A DNA stretch of 64,000 nt from Gammaproteobacteria bacterium (GTDB taxonomy: Bacteria > Pseudomonadota > Gammaproteobacteria > UBA5861). A model generated the notes under the pieces. The model ran no database searches. It was not told where the DNA came from and was given only the letters and a program-made list of their open reading frames with translations. Shown here one piece after another: positions 5,201-58,143 of this stretch (positions are counted from its first letter, which is position 1; every line of letters begins with the position of its first letter). Both the position numbers and the translations under genes were made by a program. The stretch covers positions 1,364 through 65,363 of the forward strand of contig JAKSCV010000012.1 of assembly GCA_022360445.1 (NCBI GenBank). Direction: 5' to 3'.

Positions 5201-8200
5201 CCGGGTGGGTTGTCGTGGTTCGCTCGCCAAAGAGGTAGCTTGTAAGCGCTGTGCCTTCAAGCACAATGATATTGGAAATGATGTCTGTTCCAATGCTGTT
5301 TGGAATGGGCTCGCCAAGGATGCTTTCCTGTCCATCAAGGAAATCCTGTGGTTGTTCTTCGGAAAGTGCATAGCCCGTGCTATCACTGGGAGGCAGTTCA
5401 TCAAAAGTAAGTGTCCCATTTGATGCCGTACGTGCGCTTCGGCTCAGTGGTTGGCCGTAAGCGTCTTGGCCAGAGAGAGTGAGTAAGACATTAGCTATAC
5501 CAGGCTCGTCGATATCTTGAATACCATTGTCATTGCTATCCAAATAGACGCCAGCGGTAATGCTCGCTTTTGCAACATTCAAAGAACCAGAGCGGGTATT
5601 GTTAGATAGGTCAATATCAAATTCTACCGTGGATGCTGTTGCTGTGTTGCTCAGCGTGTCATTTTCCGGATAGGTTGTGACAACACTCGGTATTGTGATA
5701 ACGATTTCCTGGCCATGAGTCACATAGCCTAAATCGCAGGTAATACGTTCGCCGGTGTCGGCAACGTCACAACGGCCTTGTGTGGCTTCCGGGAGAGCGG
5801 TGAGTATTGTTCCCGGTGGTAAAGTATTAACCAAGGTGGTTTGTCGACTATCACCCGGACCATTGTTGACGACGGTGACGCGCCATTCAAAAGGCTGATT
5901 GAGGTTTACTGTATCCAGGCTGGAACTGACTTCACGGACTTCAATATCAACACCCAAAGCCGTTGTTGTCAGTTCTTCGGTGGTATTGTTGCTGGTATCG
6001 GAGTCAATTTGGTCGGATTGAATGTGCACATTCAACTTGTAGGTGTCGCCACCGATATCCGGCAAGGATATGACCTGATAAATCAAATTCCTCTCAAGTG
6101 TTTGATGAGCACTCAGTGTGTCGATGTGGCATGAGGTAATGCCCTCTGTCGTGATGATTTGATTTTGCCCAGTACATGTTTGCTCAGTCACTGGGGGACA
6201 ATCTGTGGTATCGGCACTGGTATCACAAATAAATTGAATGGATTTCCCAGGTGGTGTTGTCAGTTTGTTGTTCAGTTGAACATTGGTTGCCGCGGCAGGC
6301 CCTAGGTTTTCTGAACGCAGGGTATAGACAATTACGTTATTTTTCGGAATGAGGGGGTTGAATGCGGCTGGGTCATTGCTGTCTGAGGCGTTGACCAGTA
6401 GATCAAGAGTGGCCTGTCCAACGGACAGTGTGGCTGTTTTTGCATTATTGGTTTGATCAGTATCGTAAGTGTCAGCTGTCACACGAGCTGTGTTGTTGAT
6501 CGACCCGAACGCTTCACTCCCTGTTTGGATGTTGACTGTAACGGTTTGAGTTTCTCCAGCAGGTAAGTCACCAACGCTACAGGCAAGTAACAGACTTTCA
6601 CTTTCGTAAAGGCAGCTTCCTTGAGAGGCTGATGCACTCAGGAATGAGAAAGCTGCCGACTCAGGAGCAAAGGTGTCCTGTATGACCACATTGCTTGCTT
6701 TTGAGGGGCCATTGTTCCGAAAACTGATCACGTAACTTGCCTGATCACCCGAGATCACTTGCTGTGGTGAGACCGTTTTGCTCGTGAGCTGCAGGTCAGT
6801 CGCGGGTAGAACGGTCACAGGCGCAGAGGCCTTGTTATTACTGGGGTCTGGGTCGTCCGATGTTGACGTGTAGACAGTCGCTTCAAAGTCCCAAGTACCT
6901 GCGAGCATGGGGCGAGAAACCGTCACTGTGACACGCGTTGACTCACCGGACGCAAGGGAATCCAATGCACAATAAATATAGCGTTTTGTATGATTACTGG
7001 TTGAGCAGCTACCCTGTTCAGGTGTGATGACCAACCCTGTCGCCTGGTGGAAATCCGTAGCCGGGGCGTCCATCATAATGCGGTCAGTCAACCGTATATA
7101 GGTTGCTTCAACAGGTCCATTATTGGTGATCTCGAGGGTGTAAACCAGCGTGTTTTCGTTTGGGTTAAGAACGGCTTTGTCAACAGTTTTGGTGAGCGCG
7201 AGGTCAACAATATTGTTTGTAGATTTTACGCTTTCTGAGTCGCAATCATTGTTGGGGTTGGCGTCACCCTCTGGAGGAGGGTTGCCTGCTGACGTGCTTG
7301 TACAGGCCGTATTTGTGAGTTGCCCGGTCCCCTCTGCACGAGTGGTAATGGTCAGTATCGGTGTCAGCGCGTTAACAGCGAGTGGGTCTGGGTGTTCACA
7401 GGTGACGACATTTCCTGAGTGATTGCAGGTCCATCTATTGCCTGTAGCAGAAACAAACACTTCTTCTGGCTCTAGTGTGTCAGTCACTTTAATGGGGCCG
7501 GAGGCTTGTTTAGGACCTCTGTTCCCAACTTGAATCGTGGATGTGATGTTGGTGCCTTGGGCAATCGTTCCACTGGTCTTGCTTTTATTCAAATACAAAT
7601 CTGCGCCATTTGGCATCAGCGTATAAGTGACAGCATCATTATTATTGCCTGTATTAATTTCGGCTGATGTTGTGCTTACTGATACGGCATTGGTTTGGTT
7701 AGGTCCGCTTGCAGGTAAGGTATCTGCGGTTGTTGCTGTAATCGTGATGATGGGTGCACTGCCCGTTCCCAGCAGCGGCCTCTCGCAAGACACAATCAGA
7801 CCGCTCGCTTCACAGGTCCAGCCATCGCCATCGGCCACTATGTTTTTCAGTCCGCTGGGAAGGGTATCAGTGACGCGAACATTTTCAGCGCTTGATGAGC
7901 CTTGATTGCTTGCTGTGATAAAAAAGCGAATGGTTTCATTCAGCCCGGCATGGGTTGCTGATGCTGTTTTCTCTATGACGAGGTCAGGTCCGGATGAAAG
8001 GCTCAGCTGGTGTGTTGCCGTATTATTTTCAGTATTGGGGTCTGATAGATTGCCGGGGGACACCGAGACGCTGTTAGATACCGTTCCTGTTGCACTGCTT
8101 GAAATCTGTGTAGCGAGTTGAAGTGAAGACGCCTGGCCATCTGCTAGTAGAGTATTTGAGTAAGTGCAGCTAGCCGTTTGAGTGTTAAAACTGCATTGCC

Positions 8201-8876
8201 AGTTTGCCCCACTGTAGCCGGTGTATGTTAATTCCGGTGGCAGTGTGTTGGTTAATTGCAGTGAGCTGACAGAGTTGGGGCCTGAGTTTTCTGCCTCTAC
8301 GGTATAGATAACATCCGAACCTGTGGCCGCAGGATTCGGTGCAGCATCAAGTGTTACTGACACATCAGCGCCTGCAATGATGGTAGTCTCTTCAGTTTGT
8401 GCGTTGTTGCTAGTATTAATATCTTCGCTGGTTGAGGAGATTCTGGCTGTCAGGCTGACAATTTGAGGGCCTGGAGCAACGGCTTTGAGTGTTAAGTCGA
8501 GATTGAAACTGGATTGAGGCTGGAAGCTGCCAATATCACAAGTGACTTTTTGCTCTGAGGAAATAAATTCACACTGGCCAATGCTTGACGTTGCGCTAAT
8601 GAACTCAAAACTTGCCGGAATGTTGATATCAACTTTTGCATTTTCAGCAACACCGTATTGGCTGTTATCGGCTTTAATCGTATAAGTTACGTTGCTGCCC
8701 GCAATAACTGGGTCCTTCTGGTCATCAAAGCGGGTAATGCCTAAATCTGTTGCGACGGCTTCGGCACCTGCTGCATACCAAGCAGACCCCAAGACTAAGG
8801 CTAGCCATAGGGAAATGGTTTTTTTGGAAATGTGTTTATTCTTTTTATTCACTTCTTCTTTCTCGGCCCAACTCAA
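2274..8876 (-). CDS. Giant (about 2200 aa) secreted repeat protein, putative surface adhesin: DUF11-type repeats plus SdrD-B/Cna-B-type repeats
   Basis: Single 6.6-kb ORF. The N-terminus KKTISLWLALVLGSAWYAAGAEA is signal-peptide-like; the ORF-track start is TTG at 8876, and GTG at 8852 gives a more typical n-region. At least 8 modules carry the DUF11-like motif N-x-G-P/S..A-x-N-V..TD-x-LP, for example ITASNQGSSSAENVRVTDTLPSG and ISFRNNGPSKASNVVIQDTF. These are followed by modules of the form G-x-V-Y-x-D-x-N-x-NG...GI-x-GV-x-L-x-L-x-G. Confidence 0.85.
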   Translation of the reverse strand: MSWAEKEEVNKKNKHISKKTISLWLALVLGSAWYAAGAEAVATDLGITRFDDQKDPVIAGSNVTYTIKADNSQYGVAENAKVDINIPASFEFISATSSIGQCEFISSEQKVTCDIGSFQPQSSFNLDLTLKAVAPGPQIVSLTARISSTSEDINTSNNAQTEETTIIAGADVSVTLDAAPNPAATGSDVIYTVEAENSGPNSVSSLQLTNTLPPELTYTGYSGANWQCSFNTQTASCTYSNTLLADGQASSLQLATQISSSATGTVSNSVSVSPGNLSDPNTENNTATHQLSLSSGPDLVIEKTASATHAGLNETIRFFITASNQGSSSAENVRVTDTLPSGLKNIVADGDGWTCEASGLIVSCERPLLGTGSAPIITITATTADTLPASGPNQTNAVSVSTTSAEINTGNNNDAVTYTLMPNGADLYLNKSKTSGTIAQGTNITSTIQVGNRGPKQASGPIKVTDTLEPEEVFVSATGNRWTCNHSGNVVTCEHPDPLAVNALTPILTITTRAEGTGQLTNTACTSTSAGNPPPEGDANPNNDCDSESVKSTNNIVDLALTKTVDKAVLNPNENTLVYTLEITNNGPVEATYIRLTDRIMMDAPATDFHQATGLVITPEQGSCSTSNHTKRYIYCALDSLASGESTRVTVTVSRPMLAGTWDFEATVYTSTSDDPDPSNNKASAPVTVLPATDLQLTSKTVSPQQVISGDQASYVISFRNNGPSKASNVVIQDTFAPESAAFSFLSASASQGSCLYESESLLLACSVGDLPAGETQTVTVNIQTGSEAFGSINNTARVTADTYDTDQTNNAKTATLSVGQATLDLLVNASDSNDPAAFNPLIPKNNVIVYTLRSENLGPAAATNVQLNNKLTTPPGKSIQFICDTSADTTDCPPVTEQTCTGQNQIITTEGITSCHIDTLSAHQTLERNLIYQVISLPDIGGDTYKLNVHIQSDQIDSDTSNNTTEELTTTALGVDIEVREVSSSLDTVNLNQPFEWRVTVVNNGPGDSRQTTLVNTLPPGTILTALPEATQGRCDVADTGERITCDLGYVTHGQEIVITIPSVVTTYPENDTLSNTATASTVEFDIDLSNNTRSGSLNVAKASITAGVYLDSNDNGIQDIDEPGIANVLLTLSGQDAYGQPLSRSARTASNGTLTFDELPPSDSTGYALSEEQPQDFLDGQESILGEPIPNSIGTDIISNIIVLEGTALTSYLFGERTTTTHPDLSQLSGSVYFDGNNNGIRESQETGIPGVLLTLTGLSAANDDINITVATNDNGDYLFSNLPASSPSGYTVTQTQPEGWLDGIESAGTAGGDVSDNQISNIVLASSIHARNYLFGEQKPDDPPTLGSLSGTVYIDINGNGLQESDDLPIENNTVSLTGTTTLGELFSQTTQTSETGQFAFTNLPAGTYRLIQTQPTHLIDRTALAGTLGGRSDANQINDIPLQPGDNGTHYRFTEQYSRLTGAVYLDSNENGLFDEGESGIDGVTLQLSGQDGSGNTLNRETQSAEDGHFTFDTLPASDSTGYTLEEMQPAGWQWLEGTITVGDAGGNAADNRILNIVLITTPHAKGYLFGERQGSDDPPATARISGHVWLDENHDRIINEPNSGQKDWIVQLYQRTGPVDNSEASLVAETRTNENGDYVFNNIEPGSGYEIRFLHPNGYVYGDPISSLSEAEITQGTIRNITLADNADIPDQNLPIDPSGIIYNAVTRQPISGATVRISGPTGFDPGLHLVGGENNQSQITADDGYYQFLLLTDAPAGTYTLDVSAPDGYIPLNSAIIPVCENTLAVMPTPDPALVHADARAPVESAPIHDPQNCPITTPGLAATASSTQYFLTFNISPITSADVVSNHIPLDPLDGDTITAIKSSPKNKVIRGELVPYTLRYTNNLSLEIRNIALQDRIPPGFKYIENSAKLDGASHEPSINGLELTWPNITFTPNQTRTITLMLIVGAGVEEGEYVNQTWAYSFAINQRLSNIATAKVLVTPDPLFQCSDLIGKVYDDRNINGYPDKGEPGIAGVKLVTARGLITKTDQYGRYHIACAALPNRLHGSNFILKMDERSLPSGFRTTTENPRVVRLTEGKMEKINFGATIHRVIRLDLGPSAFSNTTALTPDSLKKLDDLVNILNQKPSILRLAYIAEGESQSTVNDRLDTLEKQLKKRWKQCDCDNYELIIEREILWRTSANEVGKQPRRLRRD
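3880..5565 (-). repeat. Tandem array of five coding repeats of about 115-125 aa (SdrD-B / Cna-B-like) inside the giant gene; a sixth, diverged copy lies near 2800-2880
   Basis: Repeat heads are GVYLDSNDNGIQDIDEPGIANVLLTLSG, GSVYFDGNNNGIRESQETGIPGVLLTLTG, GTVYIDINGNGLQESDDLPIENNTVSLTG, GAVYLDSNENGLFDEGESGIDGVTLQLSG and GHVWLDENHDRIINEP. Spacing is about 340-375 nt. A 26-mer at 5524-5549 matches 4450-4475 with one mismatch. Confidence 0.65.
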
Positions 8877-9253
8877 TAAAGTGATTAAATTTTGTGCCTA
8901 AAAAAATAAAGCTATCTGCGTTTACTTTTTACCTAAGCTATTGACCTGATGCGACTTAAATTTTTTTTTATTGATAATTAATACAGACTTATATCTATTT
9001 TTTTAATCAAAATGTTAATTAGTTAAAGTTCCTCGCATTTCATCAGTGCTTGTTAAATTTTAGAAGCAAACACTAAGCTTGATGACTGAGCGCAGTGTAT
9101 ACCTGATCAATAAGAAGCTATATCCCATAAGAGAGGTATCGTAGCGCTACTCCATGCATGTTACCACAGCATTAAAAGTCTATGATTTTGTAGGGTTCAC
9201 GATTAATGTGTTTTATTGTTTGGGGTGCGCTGGATGGTGAGTGAGCATAGGTC

Positions 9254-9276
9254 CCGCCCCGAGAATATAGGGGCGG
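9254..9276 (-). terminator. GC-rich hairpin just downstream of the thiolase-like gene; no U-tract on the minus strand
   Basis: CCGCCCC (9254-9260) pairs with GGGGCGG (9270-9276) around a 9-nt loop, 14 nt past the stop at 9290. The lack of a T-run on the transcribed strand keeps confidence low. Confidence 0.3.
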
Positions 9277-9289
9277 TTTGATAGGTTGG

Positions 9290-10441
9290 TTAGCTTGACG
9301 AAGGGTCGTTGGTCATCACGATTGTGCCACTTGCGCCAAACATGCCGCCTACGCCGTGGCAGACCGAAAGCGTTGCGCCTTCGACCTGAGCTGGCGAAGT
9401 ACCGCGCATTTGCCTAACACTCTCTTGCAATGCATACATCCCATACATGCCTGAGTGCATATAGCTAAGACCTCCGCCGTTAGTGTTCATAGGGAGTTTG
9501 CCTCCTGGCGCTGTGTTGCGCTCCCAAATGAAGTCACCAGCTTCTCCAGGTTTGACAAAACCCAAGTCCTCAAGCCCAAAGATTGGCAGGTGCGCGAAAG
9601 CGTCGTAGATCATCAAGTGGTCGACATCACTGTGTTGAATACCGGCTGATTCGAAAGCCTGCCTGCCAGAGACGCGGAATGCCCGGGAGCTGGTGAAACT
9701 TTCCATTTGGCTGATCATTGGCGTCTCGACGCTCTCGCCAGTACCTCTTATGTAAACTGGTTTGGTTTGAAAGTCTTTTGCGCGCTCGGCACTCGTCAGG
9801 ATGAGCGCACCGCCGCCATCAGTAACCAGACAACACTCCAGCAGATGAAAAGGATAAGCAATCATGCGGGAATTCAGTACATCTTCTACTGTGATTGGGT
9901 CTCGGAACGAAGCACGCGGGTGTGCAGCTGCCCATTCTCTTTGCACAACGGCAATGTTAGCCAACTGTTCGTGTGTGAGCCCCATGTCCTTCATGTAGCG
10001 CAAAACGGGGATTGTAAATAGAGTGGGCGGACCCATTGGACCGTAAGGTAACTCAAATTGCCCTTGTAAGTGGGTGGGCAGGACGGGTGGTCGGAATTTG
10101 CCAATCAAGGATTTCCCGCTTTCACCATGGGTGATGAGCACGGTTTCGCACAGCCCAGCATTAATTGCGGCAGCGGCATGCCGAACATGGAGCATGAAAG
10201 AACAACCGCCTACCGATGTGCCGTCGACCCACTTGGGTGTAATGCCTAAATAGTGTGCAATGTGAGTGGGCCACTCCATCGAACAGGCGACGCCGTCGAT
10301 GTCGGATGGTTTTAAACCACAGTCTGTCATGGCATTGAGGGCGGCATCCGCATGCAAGCTGATTTGCGACAGTTCGGGAATTTTCCCCAATTTAGTGGTT
10401 TCTGCCGCACCGACAATCGCAATGGAATTACGTTTCATCAA
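9290..10441 (-). CDS. Thiolase-like protein (SCP-x / lipid-transfer-type acetyl-CoA acetyltransferase family)
   Basis: 383-aa ORF with an N-terminus IAIVGAAETTKLGKIP...DIDGV and a C-terminal NTNGGGLSYMHSGMYGM...CHGVGG, typical of the thiolase fold. It lies 9 nt downstream of a DUF35 gene, which is the usual partner. Confidence 0.85.
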   Translation of the reverse strand: MMKRNSIAIVGAAETTKLGKIPELSQISLHADAALNAMTDCGLKPSDIDGVACSMEWPTHIAHYLGITPKWVDGTSVGGCSFMLHVRHAAAAINAGLCETVLITHGESGKSLIGKFRPPVLPTHLQGQFELPYGPMGPPTLFTIPVLRYMKDMGLTHEQLANIAVVQREWAAAHPRASFRDPITVEDVLNSRMIAYPFHLLECCLVTDGGGALILTSAERAKDFQTKPVYIRGTGESVETPMISQMESFTSSRAFRVSGRQAFESAGIQHSDVDHLMIYDAFAHLPIFGLEDLGFVKPGEAGDFIWERNTAPGGKLPMNTNGGGLSYMHSGMYGMYALQESVRQMRGTSPAQVEGATLSVCHGVGGMFGASGTIVMTNDPSSS

Positions 10442-51726: not shown

Positions 51727-52446
51727 TTATTTTTTGAATTGAATCACTTTTGTTAAAGCGCTGATCGTCAATTCATCGACTGAGCAGCCCGGTCGTAAGG
51801 ATAAAACAGCGGCAATTTGTTGAGCGATGTCTTCGGGCTTAATGTGTTGATTGGCTTCTTCGCCGGGCTTGAAGTTCAGCGCATCAAAAAAGGGTGTATC
51901 AACCATCCCTGGATTCACGACGGTGACTTTCACCCCCGCTCGGCCGCATTCGTCCCTTAAGGCTTGAGCAAAGCCGCGCAGGGCAAATTTACTGGCGCTG
52001 TAGATGGTTCCCTTCCGGTCACCCCGCAACCCAGCAATAGAACTCATTAAAATGATGTCACTGGATACGTTTTTTTTTAGAGCTGGCAAGAAGGCCCGGA
52101 TTAAAAAGGCCTGACTGGTGAAGTTAAGATCCATCAGCGAGCGAATTTGCGGGTAGGAAAACTCTTCCAGTGACTTGAAAATGCCCTGGCCAGCACAGCA
52201 GATGAGGCCAGAGACGGGTATTTCATCCTGTGCGAGAGAGGTTTGAAGTTGGACGAGCTGGTTGGGGAGTTGGTCAAGGTCAGAGAAGTCCAGGGGAACA
52301 GGTGTGAAGGCGTGGCTGTTTGGTGAAAATTTACGCCAGTCTCGTGCTAGCCCTACGACTTTGTGGCCTTCAGCCAGCAAGGTCTCGGTCATGGCTTTTC
52401 CGATACCTGAGCTTGCGCCAGAGATGATGAATCGCCTGATTGTCAT
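51727..52446 (-). CDS. Short-chain dehydrogenase/reductase (SDR)
   Basis: Contains ISGASSGIGKA and YSASKFAL. ATG 52446-52444 overlaps the TGA (52445-52443) of the upstream radical SAM gene, forming an ATGA junction. Confidence 0.85.
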   Translation of the reverse strand: MTIRRFIISGASSGIGKAMTETLLAEGHKVVGLARDWRKFSPNSHAFTPVPLDFSDLDQLPNQLVQLQTSLAQDEIPVSGLICCAGQGIFKSLEEFSYPQIRSLMDLNFTSQAFLIRAFLPALKKNVSSDIILMSSIAGLRGDRKGTIYSASKFALRGFAQALRDECGRAGVKVTVVNPGMVDTPFFDALNFKPGEEANQHIKPEDIAQQIAAVLSLRPGCSVDELTISALTKVIQFKK

Positions 52447-53435
52447 AATGTGCAGCGGAAGAATTTCTCTTCGGGTATGTGGTTTAAAATTTGTGTTTTG
52501 CAAAACGCGATCATTTCTTCTTCCAGTGCGGCTTCATAAGATGTCATGCCATTGTCGCTGGATAATGGCCCCGCGAACAGTTTCTCGTCAGGATACAGGC
52601 GGGTCAGTTTTTTGAAAAAGCCATCAGGCAAACGGAAAGGCCCGAGACTGACAGAGTGAATACTGGGCTCGGGCAATGCGGAGAAAACCTGCTCAAACAG
52701 TTCCAGGTAAAGCGTTTGATAATGGCTTTGGTAAATCAAAGGGTCGAAGCGCAAGCCAATTTTCCAACCGTTTTCAGCAAGCTTCAGCATCGCCCGAATA
52801 CGGGCGGATAACCCAGGCGCACCGTGTTCAAGTGACTTTGCCACGCTCGCGGGATTCAAGCTGTAGGCTACGACGACATTATTGATGGCTTCTGTTTCTA
52901 GTAGCGCACTGATTTGTGTGCTTTTGGTTCTTAGTTCAAGTAGGGTGTGTGGCCGCTCTCGAAAAAGTGGCAAAATGTGCGAGGCAAACCCCGAGGTACT
53001 CTCAAAAGCGAGGCTATCGCAATCGTAACCGGAGAAAAAATGAATGCTTTGGCCTGGGTGTTGACTGGCCGTTAGCCGAATCGCTTGGTCAAAGTCTTCG
53101 TAATTGACAAAAAGAACATAATTTGCTGAGCGGTACATGCCTTGTAAAAAACAATAGCGACAGTCATACAGGCAGTTGAGCATATGTGAGAAATAATAAT
53201 TATACGCGCCGCCAATGCCGTATCCATCAGGCGCAGGCAGTATAAATCCTTTATGTTTTTGCGCCAGGATCAGCGCGGGTATTTTCTTTTGCAGTCGGAA
53301 GTTTTGCGCCTTGGGATTGAACACTTCGCTATAGCGCTCACAAGTGATTCGACGGGCATTTGGGTAGCGCTTTAAGATGTCGGTGACTCGTGGGTGGCCC
53401 TGAAGGGCAGCTTCAATGTAGATGGTATCGATCAA
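52443..53435 (-). CDS. SPL-family (spore-photoproduct-lyase-like) radical SAM protein
   Basis: 330 aa with a CLYDCRYC (C-x3-C-x2-C) cluster in an SplB-like context. The family assignment is by recollection of the family, not by search. Confidence 0.7.
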   Translation of the reverse strand: MIDTIYIEAALQGHPRVTDILKRYPNARRITCERYSEVFNPKAQNFRLQKKIPALILAQKHKGFILPAPDGYGIGGAYNYYFSHMLNCLYDCRYCFLQGMYRSANYVLFVNYEDFDQAIRLTASQHPGQSIHFFSGYDCDSLAFESTSGFASHILPLFRERPHTLLELRTKSTQISALLETEAINNVVVAYSLNPASVAKSLEHGAPGLSARIRAMLKLAENGWKIGLRFDPLIYQSHYQTLYLELFEQVFSALPEPSIHSVSLGPFRLPDGFFKKLTRLYPDEKLFAGPLSSDNGMTSYEAALEEEMIAFCKTQILNHIPEEKFFRCTL

Positions 53436-53441
53436 GTGGCG

Positions 53442-54275
53442 TTAATCCAATGTTGTCGGCTGTTGATGGAGGGTGTTGCGGAGTGTTTGCAGGCACTCCC
53501 GGCTGCTGCGGCAGTTGGAGATAGCGGACTCTACGGAAGCCGTATCGCCCCAGATTAAATGCCAACGCCGGAGTAATTGTTGAAGTTGCATTTTTTGCTG
53601 TTGAGAAAATCGCCACTTTTGTGCGATAGCTTCGAAGTTATTAGGAATGTGGTGCGCGACTTCCAACTCGTCCAGCAAGGCTTTCTGGCTTTGCAGCACT
53701 TGCTCGATGGATTCAAGATGATGTTTTATATTTTGTTCGATCCAGGCGGGTGTAATACTTTCAATCGGGTGGTGATGTGTGTCAGATACCACTTTAAGAC
53801 ACTGCACTAACTCATTAGATGTAAAGCGTGTTGCAGTATAGTAAAACCCTGAGGCTTCCATCTCGAACAAACCGTGCGCAGGATAATCAGTCACGGGTTT
53901 GGGCACAGTAAAGACCTCCTCTGTCTGGCATGGCAGTGTATACGTGAGAGAGGGGTAGTGGCTGTGGCCCGTGTCGCCATCAGTTATTTTGTGGGCTGCA
54001 AATAGGTCGCCCAGTTCGACATGGCCATGACCGGCTATGCCAACATTGAGCCAGCTGCTAAAGCTATTATGACCGGCGAGCATGTAGGTATAAGCAACGG
54101 CAGCGGCACTGGCGACCTTGCCGATACCACTAATGGTTAACCAGAGGTTATCTCTCCGGTAAACCTCGAAAGTCGGCGCGTGAGTCAGCTTTTTTAGCCC
54201 GAAAAAAGGAAGCAATGCTTTGGCTTCAATTGGCATTGCCACGATCAGATGTTGATGGGGCTGCTGCAGGGGCAT
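53442..54275 (-). CDS. PNP_UDP_1-family nucleosidase/phosphorylase (MTA/SAH-nucleosidase-like) with an extra C-terminal helical region of about 90 aa
   Basis: Blocks match E. coli MtnN by eye: LIVAMPIEAKAL, SGIGKVASAAA, NVGIAGH, EMEASG, KVVSD. Its start shares 1 nt with the GT2 stop (TGATG). Confidence 0.7.
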   Translation of the reverse strand: MPLQQPHQHLIVAMPIEAKALLPFFGLKKLTHAPTFEVYRRDNLWLTISGIGKVASAAAVAYTYMLAGHNSFSSWLNVGIAGHGHVELGDLFAAHKITDGDTGHSHYPSLTYTLPCQTEEVFTVPKPVTDYPAHGLFEMEASGFYYTATRFTSNELVQCLKVVSDTHHHPIESITPAWIEQNIKHHLESIEQVLQSQKALLDELEVAHHIPNNFEAIAQKWRFSQQQKMQLQQLLRRWHLIWGDTASVESAISNCRSSRECLQTLRNTLHQQPTTLD

Positions 54276-55120
54276 CAGTGGCTTCCCGTTGTTTTTTGCA
54301 CGGATTGGAATAAAGATTCGTAGTGCGTAGCATCTTCCAAGCGGCCTCGCTTACGTGCGCCGGCTGCAAATATGTTGGTTTTTTTCTTTAACATTGACAT
54401 TGCGGCTTGTCTGTCGGTGTCGGAAAGTAACGGCGCCCCCGCCTTTAAAAGGTTATGAAGTGCACGGATCCGAAAACGATCCATGCCCCAATATTGCTTA
54501 GACAGTTGGTCGTCATGTCCGCCGTATTTGATAATTTGAGGTTTTGAGACAAAAGTGACCGGGTATCTGGCAGTGATCCGCAGCCATAAGTCGTAATCTT
54601 CACAAGCAGGCAGAGAGGTATCGAAGTGTCCAAGTTCTTCGAAGACCCGCTGATGGATGATGATGGATGAGGGCGACATGGCGCAAAGCGGCAGGCAGTG
54701 CTGAAAAATCCGCCCGCCTTTTTTTGCGTGTTTTTTGTGTGGGTTCACGCGTTGACCATTGCGAATCCAGATTTCTTCGGTATGGCAAATCAGCTGTCCC
54801 GACGCGCTTAGTGCCTGCTTTTGGGCAGAAAGCTTTCCGGGCAACCACTCATCATCAGAATCCAGCAAAGCGTTCCACTCGCCCGATGCTGTCCGGGTGC
54901 CGGCATTACGAGCAGCACTCACACCTTTTTGTGTTTGTTTGAGGTAGCGGACCTGGCTGAAATTATCTTTAATAAGCGTTTCTGTGTCATCAGTCGACCC
55001 ATCATCTACAACGATGATCTCATCAGGGGGGGGCGTCTGTTTGAACACAGAATTTAATGCGCGGGGTAAATAACCCGCGCGGTTGTGAGTTGGAATGATG
55101 ACGGAGACACTGTCAAACAT
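54275..55120 (-). CDS. Family 2 glycosyltransferase
   Basis: 281 aa containing VSVIIPTHNRAGYL...VVDDGSTDDT...LDSDDEW (GT-A fold with a DxD motif). Confidence 0.88.
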   Translation of the reverse strand: MFDSVSVIIPTHNRAGYLPRALNSVFKQTPPPDEIIVVDDGSTDDTETLIKDNFSQVRYLKQTQKGVSAARNAGTRTASGEWNALLDSDDEWLPGKLSAQKQALSASGQLICHTEEIWIRNGQRVNPHKKHAKKGGRIFQHCLPLCAMSPSSIIIHQRVFEELGHFDTSLPACEDYDLWLRITARYPVTFVSKPQIIKYGGHDDQLSKQYWGMDRFRIRALHNLLKAGAPLLSDTDRQAAMSMLKKKTNIFAAGARKRGRLEDATHYESLFQSVQKTTGSH

Positions 55121-55129
55121 AGTGCCGAT

Positions 55130-55924
55130 TTATCCGTAGCTTTGCGAGATGCTGTCTAATGGTGATTTTTGAATACCGTGATTTGGAATAGGGTAGCGCA
55201 ATCCGACTTTATGCAAAGCTTCGAGGCCTTTGAGGATATGAGGCAGATAGGACGGCGCAAAAGCAATGAGGAGTTCGTCGTCTTGCACGCCGCCAAACTT
55301 GCGTTCTGCATAACAGGGAATGGATAAACTCGGTTCACCGGTACGCAGTGCTTTCCCCCAGGAGTCCGCACAGGCACTTTCGCCTACACAGGTAAATTCA
55401 AGTTTTTTATAACCAGTATGCTGTAATCCATTGATAAGTGTGATCATTTGCCCAGGCGTTGCATACACAAGACAAATGTCAGGATTATCCAGGCGTTTTG
55501 AGGTTAATGGCGAGACAGCCAGTGCTTTATAGTCACCGTGACTGGCGCAATCCATGGCGCGCTGATGGGCAGCACTGTCTTCGAGTGTGCCATACCAAAC
55601 GCCGTTCATTTTTTCGCCACTCAGCCACTCATCATCTGGAGGGTGTAATCCAACTACGGCACCACATTGCTCGCCCATGAGATGATCCATCGTGATACCC
55701 AGTGTCCAGCCGATCCAACGGCTTTGACCCACAACTTGGTCCATGGCAAGTTTTTCTTTAGGGTTGGGTTTGCGCAGACGAGGTATGGCCTCCATTTGTT
55801 CGACCGTCTCAAAACGTTTCATCCCGATTGGATTGGTTTTTAACCGAAGGTATTGGTTGAGCCCGTTAACAAGTGTGTTGTAATCGTAGTCTGTAGTATC
55901 ATCCCAGCAATTCTTGTTGGCCAT
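55130..55924 (-). CDS. DUF169-family protein
   Basis: 264 aa with the Cys-containing blocks EQCGAVVG and FTCVGESACADSW and the overall DUF169 pattern as I recall it. Its stop lies 9 nt upstream of the GT2 start. Confidence 0.6.
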   Translation of the reverse strand: MANKNCWDDTTDYDYNTLVNGLNQYLRLKTNPIGMKRFETVEQMEAIPRLRKPNPKEKLAMDQVVGQSRWIGWTLGITMDHLMGEQCGAVVGLHPPDDEWLSGEKMNGVWYGTLEDSAAHQRAMDCASHGDYKALAVSPLTSKRLDNPDICLVYATPGQMITLINGLQHTGYKKLEFTCVGESACADSWGKALRTGEPSLSIPCYAERKFGGVQDDELLIAFAPSYLPHILKGLEALHKVGLRYPIPNHGIQKSPLDSISQSYG

Positions 55925-55987
55925 GGTTCCTCCCGTCTAGGCGTGATTGGAGTGGAAGTGAGGTAGCCTGAAACTATATCGCACCGA

Positions 55988-56968
55988 CTAGGGCAGGACT
56001 AGTTTAATCTCCGCAGCTGCGCTTTCAACACACTGTCGGCCGATATCGATGGCGTCTTTTGCTGAAAAAAACTCTAAAATGCCAATGTGAGCAAGCCGGG
56101 GTGTCAAATTAATTTCAGGCGGGTCGCCCGCCATGCGGCTGCGTGTGATTCGGTCTTGCATGATGTCGATGGATTTAGCCAATGTGTCAAAAAGCTTGGG
56201 CGGCTCAAAGAGGCTGGTTTCTTCATTCGAAGTGAAAAAGGATGTGTAGTTTTTTAACTTCTGGCTCAGTGCATCCAGCAAGTTAGGATCTTCGGAGGAT
56301 CTCGCTTCGTTCTCCTCTTTTTGTCTGGCGACCTGCTGTATTTTTGCCATGTTTTGTTGGGAAAAAACATGGTGGTTTAAATTAACGGCGATTACAATGT
56401 CTGCGCCGAGTGCGCGGCAAAGAGACACAGGCACCGGGTTGACCATGCCCCCATCCATGTACCAATTGTCATTGATTTTTCTTGGTGGGAAAATGCCTGG
56501 GATCGCAATGGAGGCCCATAATGAGTCCAGTATGTTACCGTGCTGTAGCCATATTTCTTGTCCATTATCCAAACGAGTTGTGACCATGCCGAAGGTAATT
56601 TCCTGATCTTCGATCAAGGCGTCATCCGGTGCAATATATTGATTGAAAACGATTTGTAGTCGTCTTTCATCAATAAAGCCGGGTTGAAGAGGATTGACAT
56701 CAAAAAACCTGATCACGTCCCATTTGTGAAGTTCACATGCCCATTTCGTAAGGGTATCAAATCTGCCGCTGACATAAGCGGCACCAATGACAGCACCCAT
56801 TGAGCATCCTGAAACAACAGCTGGAGTAATACCTTGCTCCTGCAGTGCCTGGATGACGCCTATATGTGCCCATCCTCGGGCACCACCACCGCCGAGTGCA
56901 AGCCCAATGCGCGGTTTTGGTCTTTCATGCGCATTAACATCAGAGTTTGGGTGTGTGCGTGTTGTCAT
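55988..56968 (-). CDS. Patatin-like phospholipase (RssA/YchK-like)
   Basis: 326 aa with GLALGGGGARGWAHIGV (oxyanion hole), GCSMGA (G-x-S-x-G) and DGG (catalytic Asp). Confidence 0.88.
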   Translation of the reverse strand: MTTRTHPNSDVNAHERPKPRIGLALGGGGARGWAHIGVIQALQEQGITPAVVSGCSMGAVIGAAYVSGRFDTLTKWACELHKWDVIRFFDVNPLQPGFIDERRLQIVFNQYIAPDDALIEDQEITFGMVTTRLDNGQEIWLQHGNILDSLWASIAIPGIFPPRKINDNWYMDGGMVNPVPVSLCRALGADIVIAVNLNHHVFSQQNMAKIQQVARQKEENEARSSEDPNLLDALSQKLKNYTSFFTSNEETSLFEPPKLFDTLAKSIDIMQDRITRSRMAGDPPEINLTPRLAHIGILEFFSAKDAIDIGRQCVESAAAEIKLVLP

Positions 56969-58143
56969 ATGGTCTCTTCGATAGCCTCTGTTTTTATTAG
57001 GGCTGTAATTTGATCGTCGTTAAACCCCCATGCCTTTAAGCCGTCTCGACTATGGTCGCCAGGTGTGGGTGATGCGTATTGAACGGCCCCGGGGGTGCGG
57101 CTGAATTTGGGCACTGGAGAGGGCTGGGTATAGCCACCGACTTCTGTGAAGTTTTGACGGCTGATGTGATGAGGGTGTTGATGAGCTTCACTCAGTGACA
57201 ATACCGGCGCATAGCACACGTCTGTGCCGGTGAGCAGTTCATCCCATTCATCGCGTGTTTTGGTTTTGAATATGGATTGCAGTTTGGCTTTCATTTCCGG
57301 CCACTGCGTTTGGTCGTTCTGCTCGGGGAGTTTTGTTTTGTCCAGTCCCAGCTTGTCCAAAAGCTGGAGATAGAAGCGATGTTCAATGGGGCCGATGGAA
57401 ATAAACTTGTGGTCTTTTGTTTCATAAACCTCATAAAAGTGTGCACCGGTATCTAGAAGGTTGGTGCCGACTTCATCATTCCAGGTGCCTGCATGTTCGC
57501 GCCCGCCTACGACGCCGGATATCAAGGATGCTACACAATCAATCATGGATGTGTCCACGACTTGCCCTTGTCCTGATCGGCCAGTTTCCCAGAGCGCACA
57601 CATCATGCCGAAGGCTAAGTATAACGCGCCACCGCCATAGTCACCCACAAGGTTAAGTGGTGGGACAGGTTTTTGCCCACGTCGTGCAAAGTAGTGCAAT
57701 GCGCCCCCTAGGGCGATGTAGTTGATGTCATGTCCAGCTGCCATGGACATTGGACCTGTTTGTCCGAATCCGGTCATTCGCCCGTACACGAGTTTTGGGT
57801 TTCGTTGGAGGCAGACATCCGGGCCAAGGCCGAGCTTTTCCATGACGCCAGGGCGAAACCCTTCGATCAAACCGTCTGCTCGCTCGATCAGTTTGAGAAG
57901 AGTTTCTATCCCCTCAGGGTTTTTCATGTCAATGGCAACAGAGCGGCGACTTCTGAGTGTAATGTCGTTGAGGGTATCTCTCGGCTCTCCAACAATAGCC
58001 TTTTGCGGGCGATCAATACGTAAAATATCCGCGCCCAAATCCGCCAGCAGCATGGCGCAGAATGGACCAGGGCCAATGCCTGCAATTTCGACAATTTTAA
58101 GGCCGGTGAGTGGTCCTCAGGCTGGGTTAATGCGTTTGCTCAT
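56965..58143 (-). CDS. Family III CoA-transferase (alpha-methylacyl-CoA racemase/CaiB-like), interrupted by an in-frame TGA at 58119-58117; possible pseudogene, sequencing error or recoding
   Basis: The ORF track gives 56965-58053, starting MLLADLGADILRIDRP. The same frame upstream reads ATG(58143)-SKRINPA-TGA-GPLTGLKIVEIAGIGPGPFCA, which is the conserved N-terminus of this family (compare human AMACR [33 protein letters not shown]). AGGAGG lies 7 nt upstream of ATG 58143. Confidence 0.75.

What the first reader, a model, noticed from the sequence alone, without database searches (positions are those of the whole stretch)
51727..58143. Seven tightly packed minus-strand genes (CoA-transferase, patatin, DUF169, GT2, MTAN-like nucleosidase, SPL-type radical SAM, SDR): candidate uncharacterised pathway
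Seen directly: the seven genes are co-directional and tightly spaced. Junctions in transcription order are an ATGA overlap at 56965-56968, a 63-nt gap, a 9-nt gap, a 1-nt TGATG overlap at 54275, a 6-nt gap, and an ATGA overlap at 52443-52446. This pattern argues for one translationally coupled unit. folE ends only 36 nt upstream of the first start, and a 2-hydroxyacid dehydrogenase follows after 74 nt.

I do not recognise this combination as any named pathway.

Established precedents: a radical SAM enzyme is paired with a PNP/MTAN-family nucleosidase in two characterised cases. These are HpnH/HpnG (adenosylhopane to ribosylhopane in bacteriohopanepolyol synthesis) and MqnE/MqnB or MTAN (aminofutalosine route to menaquinone). 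In both, the 5'-deoxyadenosyl radical is added to the substrate and adenine is removed afterwards.

Inference: the rSAM plus nucleosidase pair, together with a GT2, an SDR, a lipid hydrolase (patatin) and an acyl-CoA-handling enzyme, could build or remodel a ribosyl- or glycosyl-decorated lipid or other small molecule.

Counter-points: no squalene-hopene cyclase or mqn genes lie in the window. SPL-family enzymes classically abstract hydrogen on DNA rather than adenosylate a substrate. The nucleosidase may simply clear inhibitory 5'-deoxyadenosine.
Basis: partly seen in the sequence, partly recalled or inferred. Interest (0 to 1): 0.7.

Follow-up and report, generated by a model that had tools for sequence, protein, structure and literature searches.

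The report
Four-gene radical-SAM/nucleosidase module, three bystander genes
The seven tightly packed genes are real, but only four of them (a sugar transferase, an adenine-removing enzyme, a radical enzyme and a reductase) travel together across bacteria, forming an uncharacterised pathway found in nearly all the type I methane-oxidising bacteria sampled.

Summary

Comparison with 158 related loci splits the block in two.
- CoA-transferase, patatin, DUF169 and the flanking folE lie beside the radical SAM (rSAM) gene only in near-identical relatives. They appear in 0 of 158 other loci.
- GT2, an MTAN-like nucleosidase, an SPL-fold rSAM enzyme and an SDR recur together, in several different arrangements. 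Hosts include Methylococcales, MAGs labelled Planctomycetota and Ectothiorhodospiraceae, and unidentified high-GC genomes.

The strongest link is a set of natural fusions. Among the 150 best 50%-identity cluster representatives of the rSAM family, 23 are fusion proteins with the nucleosidase at the N-terminus and the rSAM at the C-terminus.

The rSAM enzyme has the complete spore photoproduct lyase (SPL) fold (TM 0.82). It has Tyr where SPL has its catalytic Cys140, and it scores far below the SplB cut-offs. The nucleosidase keeps the MTAN catalytic Glu/Glu/Asp.

My best reading is inferred, not shown. The rSAM adds 5'-deoxyadenosyl to an unknown substrate, the nucleosidase removes adenine, and the SDR and GT2 finish the product. 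This parallels HpnH/HpnG and MqnE/MqnB. I found no paper describing this module.

The parts
54275..55120 (-). GT2 glycosyltransferase, 281 aa, soluble GT-A type. Carries 'VVDDGSTD' and the DXD-type motif 'LDSDDEW'. Member of the conserved module.
   Evidence: PF00535 at 113 bits. Family-specific homologues 49-65% identical lie next to the nucleosidase and/or the rSAM in L005-L008, L035, L036, L070, L076, L080, L083 and many metagenome loci. It is immediately upstream of the nucleosidase in 19 of 61 nucleosidase-anchored loci. No predicted TM segment.
53442..54275 (-). MTAN-like adenine nucleosidase, 277 aa. Compact MTAN core plus a helical C-terminal extension of roughly 70-100 aa (helices at residues 176-270), with a conserved 'RWRFT..E..QL..LL.RW' motif. 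Member of the module.
   Evidence: Profile hits to solved MTANs align E17, M139-E140 and S164-D165 with MTAN Glu12, Met173-Glu174 and Ser196-Asp197. The AF2 model (pLDDT 93.4) matches MTAN and futalosine hydrolase structures, E about 1e-11 to 1e-12. Best NCBIfam hit is futalosine hydrolase, 35.3 bits against a 124.7 cut-off. It occurs fused N-terminally to the rSAM in 23 representative clusters.
52443..53435 (-). SPL-fold radical SAM enzyme, 330 aa, TTG start. Cluster motif C88-x3-C92-x2-C95. Invariant Tyr137 where SPL has catalytic Cys140. Phe96 where SPL has Tyr98. Core of the module.
   Evidence: PF20903 at 65 bits. TIGR04070 at 76 bits against a 400 cut-off, and TIGR03886 at 59.9 against 437.55. 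The AF2 model (pLDDT 88.5) matches SPL 4fhc/4fhe over its full length, TM 0.82-0.83, E 1e-19 to 1e-20; the next best hits (PFL-AE, MqnE) reach TM about 0.47. At least 581 GTDB species encode a relative. 695 50%-identity clusters score E<1e-30.
51727..52446 (-). Classical SDR oxidoreductase, 239 aa, read from the ATG at 52446. Motifs 'SGASSGIG', a 'GLARD' Arg that suggests NADP(H), and 'YSASK'. Member of the module.
   Evidence: adh_short at 123 bits. It is immediately downstream of the rSAM in 70 of 74 rSAM-anchored GTDB species. It lies divergently upstream of GT2 in L070, L080 and L083. It also lies downstream of a nucleosidase-rSAM fusion in a 25%-GC contig, L173.
56965..58143 (-). CoA-transferase family III gene, interrupted by an in-frame TGA at 58117-58119. 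Lineage-specific neighbour, not part of the conserved module.
   Evidence: CoA_transf_3 at 268 bits for the reading frame after the TGA. The stop codon is shown; relatives read CGT (Arg). Absent from 158 of 158 other loci.
55988..56968 (-). RssA-like patatin phospholipase. Lineage-specific neighbour, not part of the conserved module.
   Evidence: PF01734 at 106 bits. NF007623 (RssA) at 253.5 bits against a 272 cut-off. Absent from 158 of 158 other loci.
55130..55924 (-). DUF169 protein. A stand-alone, very conserved gene, not part of the conserved module.
   Evidence: PF02596 at 135 bits. Homologues 72-78% identical occur in Chromatiales, Rhodospirillales and Oceanibacterium, in unrelated neighbourhoods. 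Absent from 158 of 158 other loci.

Best explanation
The window carries a conserved, self-contained, uncharacterised four-gene module: GT2, MTAN-like nucleosidase, SPL-fold radical SAM enzyme and SDR (51727-55120). In this lineage it has come to lie directly behind three unrelated genes (CoA-transferase, patatin, DUF169), which gives the appearance of a seven-gene operon.

Proposed mechanism:
1. The radical SAM enzyme cleaves SAM and adds the 5'-deoxyadenosyl radical to an sp2 centre, or a heteroatom, of a still unknown soluble substrate. The conserved Tyr137, in the place of SPL's H-donor Cys140, could quench the resulting adduct radical.
2. The dedicated nucleosidase hydrolyses adenine off the adenosylated product and exposes a 5-substituted ribose.
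3. The NADP(H)-type SDR reduces the ribose aldehyde or keto form, or oxidises a hydroxyl.
4. The GT2 adds a sugar from a nucleotide-sugar donor.

Shown here: the four-gene linkage, the physical coupling of nucleosidase and rSAM through fusions, intact catalytic motifs, the SPL fold, and the absence of SPL's Cys.

Inferred from precedent only: that the enzyme adenosylates rather than abstracts hydrogen, the order of the steps, and the nature of the product. The substrate is unknown.
For: Linkage.
- SDR is immediately downstream of the rSAM in 70 of 74 species.
- GT2 is adjacent to the nucleosidase in 19 of 61 nucleosidase-anchored loci, and the rSAM in 15 of 53.
- At least five architectures occur: GT2-nuc-rSAM-SDR; SDR(-)|GT2-(phosphatase)-nuc-rSAM; GT2-nuc-TauE-rSAM; rSAM-SDR-nth-nuc; nuc...GT2 alone.
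- These come from genomes spanning 39-64% GC.

Fusions.
- 23 of the 28 representatives longer than 380 aa, among the top 150, are nucleosidase-rSAM fusions.
- Three of them are confirmed as uninterrupted ORFs.
- The fused nucleosidase domains keep their catalytic residues: Glu17 in 19 of 23, Glu140 in 17 of 17 aligned, Asp165 in 16 of 16 aligned.
- One fusion is followed by an SDR (L173). Another is preceded by a GT-B glycosyltransferase (L175).

Enzyme features.
- CX3CX2C is conserved in every representative aligned across that region (135-136 of 150; the rest are fragments with gaps there).
- The nucleosidase's nearest curated family is futalosine hydrolase, which acts on an adenosylation-route intermediate.
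- The residue aligned to SPL Cys140 is Tyr in 134 of 146 aligned representatives.

Precedent.
- HpnH with HpnG, and MqnE, are rSAM adenosylation routes (PMC13459092, PMC12583986). That dedicated PNP/MTAN-type enzymes (HpnG, MqnB) remove the purine base in both routes is partly from my own knowledge.
- hpn clusters also carry an SDR-type gene (hpnA) and a GT gene (hpnB) of unknown role, and the reductase that converts ribosylhopane to BHT is unidentified.
- A SAM synthetase gene sits in the L005 cluster.
- No other gene family recurs with the four.
Against: - No chemistry was tested. Every characterised member of the SPL fold abstracts hydrogen rather than adenosylating a substrate.
- In most Methylococcales only rSAM-SDR are adjacent, with the nucleosidase and GT2 elsewhere in the genome or not seen. 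I could not verify strict four-way co-occurrence within single genomes.
- A fused or adjacent nucleosidase is equally compatible with removal of inhibitory 5'-deoxyadenosine.
- The full-length match to SPL includes the regions that bind DNA in SPL, so a nucleic-acid substrate remains possible.
- GT2 enzymes need an activated donor, so the place of GT2 in the scheme is a guess.
Confidence: 0.45

Rival explanations
1. By-product clearance. The rSAM is an ordinary hydrogen-abstracting enzyme (lyase, mutase or dehydrogenase type) acting on an unknown substrate. The dedicated or fused nucleosidase only destroys the inhibitory by-product 5'-deoxyadenosine. SDR and GT2 process the rSAM product.
For: Characterised SPL-fold chemistry is hydrogen abstraction, and the fold matches SPL at TM 0.82. 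The nucleosidase keeps a generic MTAN catalytic triad. Most Methylococcales loci carry rSAM-SDR without an adjacent nucleosidase, as expected if the nucleosidase is an accessory. That 5'-dA inhibits rSAM enzymes is established knowledge.
Against: To my knowledge no other rSAM family has a dedicated or fused 5'-dA nucleosidase; the housekeeping MTAN normally does this job. This nucleosidase family is divergent: it falls below every MTAN cut-off, has its own C-terminal domain, and is fused to the rSAM in 23 clusters. That points to a specialised substrate. Its nearest curated family is futalosine hydrolase, not Pfs.
Confidence: 0.2
2. Nucleic-acid enzyme. The rSAM repairs or modifies a DNA or RNA base lesion in the manner of SPL, for example a pyrimidine or purine cross-link. 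The partner genes act on an excised or modified nucleoside.
For: Full-length structural match to SPL, including the N- and C-terminal parts. Very high conservation, 52-57% identity between Methylococcales and distant high-GC genomes, is typical of enzymes with macromolecular or universal substrates. Occasional neighbours are DNA-repair genes: AlkB-like in L089 and endonuclease III in L049 and L148. The gene is retained in methanotrophic endosymbiont and sponge-symbiont genomes (L050, L064).
Against: SPL's catalytic Cys140 is replaced by Tyr, and the Tyr98 position is Phe in half the family. Scores are far below both curated SPL models. The constant partners are an SDR, a GT2 and a nucleosidase, which no known DNA-repair pathway uses. 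The repair-gene neighbours are sporadic. The family's median pI is 7.5, so it is not markedly basic.
Confidence: 0.12
3. Nucleosidase first. The nucleosidase generates a ribose derivative from an adenosine-containing metabolite such as SAH, MTA or 5'-dA. The rSAM then rearranges or cleaves that product, the SDR reduces it and the GT2 transfers it or decorates it.
For: Gene order and fusion order are always nucleosidase then rSAM. SPL-type enzymes catalyse C-C bond scission after hydrogen abstraction. Deoxy-sugars derived from rSAM by-products are known: 7-deoxysedoheptulose and 5-deoxyribose salvage are listed.
Against: There is no precedent for this chemistry. Gene order need not follow reaction order. 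It does not explain the strong conservation of the SPL N-terminal domain.
Confidence: 0.1
4. All seven genes form one pathway that builds or remodels a ribosyl- or glycosyl-decorated lipid, using the CoA-transferase and the patatin.
For: Tight spacing and overlapping stop/start codons in this lineage, with the same order in five close relatives. L005 carries a MaoC dehydratase near its module.
Against: CoA-transferase, patatin and DUF169 occur in 0 of 158 other loci. DUF169 homologues live in unrelated contexts. The CoA-transferase carries a premature stop in this window. None of the four module proteins has a predicted membrane segment.
Confidence: 0.05

Closest known systems
HpnH / HpnG (with hpnA and hpnB) of bacteriohopanepolyol side-chain synthesis
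   Same: The same four enzyme classes sit in one cluster: a radical SAM enzyme, a PNP/MTAN-superfamily adenine-removing enzyme, an SDR-superfamily protein and a GT2. One search lists HpnB as a GT2 model. PMC12583986 and PMC13459092 describe the pathway. In that pathway the ribose is opened and reduced by an enzyme that is still unknown, a role an SDR could fill.
   Different: The members are not orthologous. The rSAM has the SPL fold, not HpnH, and no NCBIfam hit to the HpnH or HpnG models appeared among hits at E<=0.01. The SDR is a 239-aa classical type, not the extended epimerase type of HpnA. No shc or other hpn genes are nearby. The module also occurs in 25%-GC organisms.
MqnE / MqnB (aminofutalosine synthase and futalosine hydrolase) of the futalosine menaquinone route
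   Same: An rSAM adenosylation step is followed by removal of the purine base by an MTAN-type hydrolase. The nucleosidase here has futalosine hydrolase as its best curated family (35 bits) and matches H. pylori futalosine hydrolase structures.
   Different: MqnE is only a distant structural hit, TM about 0.47. The score is far below the futalosine hydrolase cut-off of 124.7. There are no mqnA, mqnC or mqnD genes. SDR and GT2 partners are not part of the futalosine route.
Spore photoproduct lyase SplB (PDB 4FHC; TIGR04070)
   Same: Full-length fold, TM 0.82. The CX3CX2C position and context 'C..YC(F/Y)LQ' match. Tyr94 matches SPL Tyr96.
   Different: About 15% identity. 76 bits against a 400-bit cut-off. 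Catalytic Cys140 is Tyr. Tyr98 is Phe in this protein. The hosts are not spore formers. The constant partners are a nucleosidase, an SDR and a GT2, and the enzyme is sometimes fused to the nucleosidase.
ArsS-type arsenosugar biosynthesis (rSAM adenosylation of arsenic, with TIGR04283 glycosyltransferase)
   Same: The logic is adenosylation, loss of adenine and formation of a riboside or glycoside. The window GT2 gives a partial hit to the TIGR04283 'arsenosugar biosynthesis glycosyltransferase' model, 65.5 bits. The ArsS chemistry is from my own knowledge, not tested here.
   Different: The hit is far below the 182-bit cut-off. ArsS belongs to a different rSAM family. There are no arsM or ars genes here.

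Membership tests
Spore photoproduct lyase (SplB, TIGR04070) | Radical SAM CX3CX2C cluster motif | tested here: met
   C88, C92 and C95 are invariant in alignments A1 and A3. They are present in every representative aligned across that region, 135-136 of 150, the rest being fragments with gaps there.
Spore photoproduct lyase (SplB, TIGR04070) | SPL three-dimensional fold over the full length | tested here: met
   The AF2 model (pLDDT 88.5) against 4fhc/4fhe/4fhg gives TM 0.82-0.83, E 1e-19 to 1e-20.
Spore photoproduct lyase (SplB, TIGR04070) | Score above the curated equivalog cut-off | tested here: not met
   76 bits against a 400 cut-off. The sister model TIGR03886 gives 59.9 against 437.55.
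Spore photoproduct lyase (SplB, TIGR04070) | Catalytic H-donor Cys (Cys140 in G. thermodenitrificans) and the Tyr98 radical relay | tested here: not met
   In the profile alignment to 4fhc, Cys140 aligns with invariant Tyr137 and Tyr98 aligns with Phe96. Across 150 representatives the Cys140 position is Tyr in 134, and the Tyr98 position is Tyr in 66 and Phe in 65. Caveat: from my own knowledge, some clostridial SPLs place the Cys elsewhere. The nearby Cys139 of this protein is not conserved (Thr 62, Cys 42, Ser 26).
Spore photoproduct lyase (SplB, TIGR04070) | Repairs 5-thyminyl-5,6-dihydrothymine in DNA | not testable with these tools
   This needs a biochemical or UV-survival assay.
MTA/SAH nucleosidase superfamily (MTAN, futalosine hydrolase) | MTAN fold | tested here: met
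   The AF2 model (pLDDT 93.4) has MTAN or futalosine hydrolase structures as essentially all of its top 50 PDB hits, E about 1e-10 to 1e-12, TM 0.55-0.71 relative to the target.
MTA/SAH nucleosidase superfamily (MTAN, futalosine hydrolase) | Catalytic Glu12, Glu174 and Asp197 equivalents | tested here: met
   E17, E140 and D165 are invariant in alignment A2 and align to the MTAN motifs. They are conserved in the fusion proteins.
MTA/SAH nucleosidase superfamily (MTAN, futalosine hydrolase) | Score above the equivalog cut-offs (Pfs NF004079; MqnB TIGR03664) | tested here: not met
   22.5 against 169, and 35.3 against 124.7. The window protein has no Pfam PF01048 hit. It is a distinct subfamily with a C-terminal helical extension.
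Adenosylating radical SAM enzymes (HpnH TIGR03470, MqnE) | Sequence membership of the HpnH or MqnE families | tested here: not met
   Neither model appears among the NCBIfam hits at E<=0.01. MqnE structures match only at the level of the generic rSAM core, TM about 0.47.
Adenosylating radical SAM enzymes (HpnH TIGR03470, MqnE) | The 5'-deoxyadenosyl group is incorporated into the product | not testable with these tools
   This needs in vitro turnover with LC-MS.
Adenosylating radical SAM enzymes (HpnH TIGR03470, MqnE) | A dedicated PNP/MTAN-type enzyme genetically coupled to the rSAM | tested here: met
   Adjacency in many lineages and 23 fusion clusters.
   CoA-transferase, patatin and DUF169 occur in 0 of 158 loci outside the clade whose rSAM is 92% identical. 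DUF169 contexts elsewhere are unrelated.
Glycosyltransferase family 2 | GT-A domain with a DXD motif | tested here: met
   PF00535 at 113 bits. 'LDSDDEW' is read directly from the translation.
Classical SDR | TGxxxGxG-type dinucleotide motif and the catalytic Ser...YxxxK | tested here: met
   PF00106 at 123 bits. 'SGASSGIG' and 'YSASK' are read from the translation.
Anti-phage defence systems (PADLOC) | Match to any defence-system protein model | tested here: not met
   None of the four module proteins has a hit. The patatin has only a marginal phospholipase-effector hit, E 2e-4.

The most novel reading that the evidence does not exclude
The SPL fold has been recruited for radical adenosylation. 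This would be a third, independent family of 5'-deoxyadenosyl-transferring radical SAM enzymes, after MqnE and HpnH. It would work hand in hand with, and often be fused to, its own adenine hydrolase. Together with an SDR and a glycosyltransferase it would make an undescribed ribose- or ribitol-extended, glycosylated metabolite. That metabolite would be produced by nearly all the type I methanotrophs sampled, including methanotrophic symbionts of mussels and sponges, and by scattered Planctomycetota-labelled, high-GC and low-GC bacteria.
Probability: 0.35. Interest if true: 0.85.

Novelty: new variant of a known kind. Interest (0 to 1): 0.6.

Why it matters
Only a few radical SAM enzymes are known to transfer the whole 5'-deoxyadenosyl group. 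In the HpnH and MqnE cases a dedicated nucleosidase partner acts on the adenosylated product. Here the same signature, up to covalent fusion, is attached to a different scaffold, the spore-photoproduct-lyase fold. That fold has so far been known only for DNA repair.

If the inference holds, it gives a new reaction type for that fold. It also points to an unknown metabolite, cofactor or envelope component that nearly all sampled type I methane oxidisers keep, including symbionts of mussels and sponges.

If it fails, the fused 'self-cleaning' rSAM enzyme would still be a new arrangement.

For annotation, the result corrects the label 'spore photoproduct lyase / DNA photolyase' now carried by thousands of database entries. 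It also shows that tight gene packing alone over-called a seven-gene pathway here.

Tried and rejected
- Promoter and terminator scan of 49-61 kb: no more matches than in shuffled sequence, so uninformative.
- Rfam scan of the window: no hits.
- Literature: six full-text searches on SPL homologues, rSAM-nucleosidase fusions, adenosylation and methanotrophs found no description of this module. One query was rejected for syntax. PMC10491745 contained none of the terms I looked for.
- PDB sequence searches for GT2 and SDR returned only generic relatives, including chondroitin synthase, PglI and assorted SDRs. They give no clue to the substrate.
- Additional recurrent partner genes. SirB, Rsd/AlgQ, IlvE, ProC and YggT recur only as Methylococcales-local synteny. 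TauE, a DSP-type phosphatase, NadE, isochorismatase, MetK and MaoC each appear in only one or two lineages. The neighbours of the non-Methylococcales modules read from sequence as ordinary housekeeping genes.
- Ideas considered and dropped for lack of support:
  - A link to folE or pterin glycosides. folE is adjacent only in this lineage.
  - H4MPT or methanofuran biosynthesis. The known route does not need these enzymes, and the distribution reaches 25%-GC bacteria.
  - Selenium or sulphur chemistry. The SelD fusion and TauE occur in one lineage only.
  - An anti-phage defence system. No PADLOC hits.
- pI and hydrophobicity of the module proteins are not discriminating: rSAM family median pI 7.5, no TM segments.
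- I could not obtain the model coordinates, so I did not analyse the active-site pockets.

Full report
**Observation.** These are ATGA overlaps at 56965-56968 and 52443-52446, gaps of 63, 9 and 6 nt, and a 1-nt TGATG overlap at 54275. folE ends 36 nt upstream of the ATG at 58143, and the 2-hydroxyacid dehydrogenase follows the SDR stop after 74 nt.

Pfam and NCBIfam confirm the domain calls: CoA_transf_3, an RssA-like patatin, DUF169, GT2, an SPL-family radical SAM (rSAM) enzyme and a classical SDR. The 'nucleosidase' has no Pfam hit. Its best NCBIfam hit is futalosine hydrolase, at 35 bits against a cut-off of 124.7.

Two details were missed. First, the CoA-transferase frame from the ATG at 58143 contains an in-frame TGA at 58117-58119, codon 9. 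Five close relatives read CGT (Arg) there. Second, the rSAM gene starts with TTG. Promoter-like and terminator-like matches inside the block are no more frequent than in shuffled sequence.

**Organism.** The closest rSAM homologues come from Methylobacter, Methylomonas, Methylomarinum and other Methylococcales, at 60-65% identity. Two UBA genome bins are 92% identical. The window therefore comes from a type I methanotroph-like gammaproteobacterium.

**Comparative genomics.** I collected 80 loci anchored on the rSAM, one per GTDB species. I also collected 80 metagenome loci anchored on the nucleosidase, plus individual look-ups. I searched all of them with the window's proteins.

- CoA-transferase, patatin, DUF169 and folE lie beside the rSAM only in the five near-identical loci (L002-L004, L090, L091). 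They appear in 0 of the other 158 loci.
- DUF169 has homologues 72-78% identical in Chromatiales, Rhodospirillales and Oceanibacterium. They sit in unrelated neighbourhoods, so it is a stand-alone gene.
- The SDR lies immediately downstream of the rSAM in 70 of 74 species with enough flank.
- A family-specific GT2 (49-65% identical) lies immediately upstream of the nucleosidase in 19 of 61 nucleosidase-anchored loci.
- The rSAM lies immediately downstream of the nucleosidase in 15 of 53 such loci.

The four genes occur in at least five arrangements:

| Arrangement | Where seen |
|---|---|
| GT2-nuc-rSAM-SDR | this window and about ten metagenome loci |
| SDR divergent from GT2-(DSP-type phosphatase)-nuc-rSAM | L070, L080, and L083 (a Planctomycetota-labelled MAG, without the phosphatase ORF) |
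| GT2-nuc-TauE-rSAM | L006-L008, 61% GC |
| GT2...nuc-rSAM, with MetK, MaoC, NadE and isochorismatase nearby | L005, a 12-Mb genome at 64% GC |
| rSAM-SDR-nth-nuc | Methylomonas, L049 and L148 |
| nuc...GT2 without the rSAM | L095, L098, L105, L113 |

No other gene family recurs with them. The conserved unit is therefore four genes, 51727-55120. The other three genes are lineage-specific neighbours.

**Rosetta-stone evidence.** I ran an exhaustive profile search of 1.84 billion cluster representatives with the rSAM alignment. It found 2666 clusters at E<=1e-3 and 695 at E<=1e-30.

Among the best 150 representatives, 28 are longer than 380 aa. Of these, 23 carry this specific nucleosidase family at the N-terminus and the rSAM at the C-terminus, in some cases including the nucleosidase's C-terminal extension. 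Three were checked on their contigs and are uninterrupted ORFs. They come from contigs of 25-38% GC.

One fusion is followed by an SDR (L173). Another is preceded by a GT-B glycosyltransferase (L175). The fused nucleosidase domains keep their catalytic residues. One further representative, P0403, runs from the rSAM straight into the start of an SDR. The nucleosidase and the rSAM therefore work together physically. Reduction and glycosylation are recurrent partner activities.

**The proteins.**

- *rSAM.* The AF2 model has pLDDT 88.5. It superposes on spore photoproduct lyase (SPL) over its full length, TM 0.82-0.83 at about 15% identity. The next best hits, PFL-activase and MqnE, reach only TM about 0.47.
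  - The cluster motif is C88-x3-C92-x2-C95.
  - SPL's hydrogen-donor Cys140 aligns with an invariant Tyr137, and SPL Tyr98 aligns with Phe96.
  - Across the 150 representatives, the Cys140 position is Tyr in 134 and the Tyr98 position is split between Tyr and Phe. The window's nearby Cys139 is not conserved.
  - Scores against both curated SPL models are far below their cut-offs: 76 against 400, and 59.9 against 437.55.
  - The protein has the SPL fold but fails the membership tests for SplB.
- *Nucleosidase.* The model has pLDDT 93.4. It is an MTAN/futalosine hydrolase fold with a helical C-terminal extension. E17, M139-E140 and S164-D165 align with MTAN Glu12, Met173-Glu174 and Ser196-Asp197.
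- *GT2 and SDR.* Both have canonical motifs. None of the four proteins has a predicted membrane segment.
- There are no PADLOC defence hits for the four module proteins.

**Interpretation.** Two characterised pathways pair an rSAM with a PNP/MTAN-type enzyme. In HpnH/HpnG and MqnE/MqnB the rSAM adds the 5'-deoxyadenosyl radical to an olefin, and the partner then removes the purine base (PMC13459092 and PMC12583986; the MqnB step is from my own knowledge). hpn clusters also contain an SDR-type gene (hpnA) and a GT gene (hpnB) of unknown role, and the reductase that turns ribosylhopane into bacteriohopanetetrol is still unidentified. The module here has the same four enzyme classes, built from non-orthologous members.

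I therefore favour, at about 0.45, this sequence: adenosylation of an unknown soluble substrate, hydrolytic loss of adenine, SDR-catalysed reduction of the exposed ribose, and GT2 glycosylation. Tyr137 is a candidate to quench the adduct radical.

This reading is inference from precedent. No step of the chemistry was tested, and all known SPL-fold chemistry is hydrogen abstraction. The rivals are:

- a 'self-cleaning' hydrogen-abstracting rSAM whose nucleosidase only removes 5'-dA (0.2);
- a nucleic-acid repair or modification enzyme (0.12), supported by the full SPL fold and sporadic AlkB or Nth neighbours, but contradicted by the missing Cys and by the constant partners;
- a scheme in which the nucleosidase acts first and supplies a ribose derivative (0.1);
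- the original seven-gene lipid pathway (0.05).

**Novelty.** Six full-text searches found no description of this module or of nucleosidase-rSAM fusions. Databases label these proteins 'spore photoproduct lyase' or 'DNA photolyase', which is probably wrong in function. I rate the finding a new variant of a known kind, namely rSAM plus a dedicated nucleosidase on a new scaffold with an unknown product.

**Verdict.** Interest is 0.6.

Noticed in passing
window 58117-58119 (minus strand, codon 9 of the CoA-transferase gene, 56965-58143): There is an in-frame TGA where five close relatives have CGT (Arg), a two-base difference. A Shine-Dalgarno-like AGGAGG still precedes the ATG at 58143. The next canonical in-frame start, ATG 58053, would delete about 30 N-terminal residues. 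This could be a pseudogene, a sequencing error or read-through.
   Followed up: partly
window 55130-55924 (DUF169): This protein is 72-78% identical to homologues in Chromatiales, Rhodospirillales and Oceanibacterium. That is higher than the identity of the neighbouring rSAM to other Methylococcales (about 63%). It suggests either very strong constraint or recent horizontal acquisition. Its contexts elsewhere are unrelated: a CRISPR-Cas locus, an old-yellow-enzyme gene, and an enoyl-CoA hydratase gene.
   Followed up: partly
L049, L095, L098, L099, L107, L110, L111, L113, L121, L126, L136, L148, L157 (nucleosidase-anchored loci): Where the nucleosidase is not next to the rSAM, it is very often directly beside a small SirB-family membrane protein (PF04247, about 118 aa), seen in 40 loci. 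This could be a fifth component or only local synteny. No copy is present in the window.
   Followed up: partly
L070:8651-9130 and L080:2230-2715: A 160-aa DSP/PTP-like phosphatase ORF (PF22741 'PTP-NADK', with an 'HCAMNWR' loop) is inserted between GT2 and the nucleosidase in two loci of about 41% GC. This hints at a phosphorylated intermediate.
   Followed up: no
L006-L008 (about 8820-9542) and L005 (2710-7992): Lineage-specific insertions lie within the module. A TauE/SafE-type membrane transporter sits between the nucleosidase and the rSAM in L006-L008. In L005, SAM synthetase, a MaoC dehydratase, NAD synthase and an isochorismatase-family protein lie around GT2 and the nucleosidase. A SelD fused to a pyridine-nucleotide oxidoreductase lies 4 kb downstream in L006-L008.
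   Followed up: no
L089:7384-7983; L049:11913-12551 and L148: DNA-repair genes lie next to the nucleosidase in some methanotroph loci: AlkB-like 2OG-Fe(II) oxygenase in L089, and endonuclease III in L049 and L148. The pattern is sporadic, but it bears on the nucleic-acid hypothesis.
   Followed up: partly
window 2274-8876 (minus strand): A very large ORF of 2200 aa with a TTG start lies near the left end of the window. I did not examine it.
   Followed up: no
P0403, P0404, P0488, P0496 (rSAM-family representatives): A subgroup of the rSAM family, with a 'CVMNCIYDCEYCYLKGMYPS'-type motif, carries an unrelated N-terminal extension of 80-170 aa with no Pfam hit in the two scanned (P0403, P0488), in place of the nucleosidase. 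P0403 continues into the N-terminus of an SDR.
   Followed up: partly
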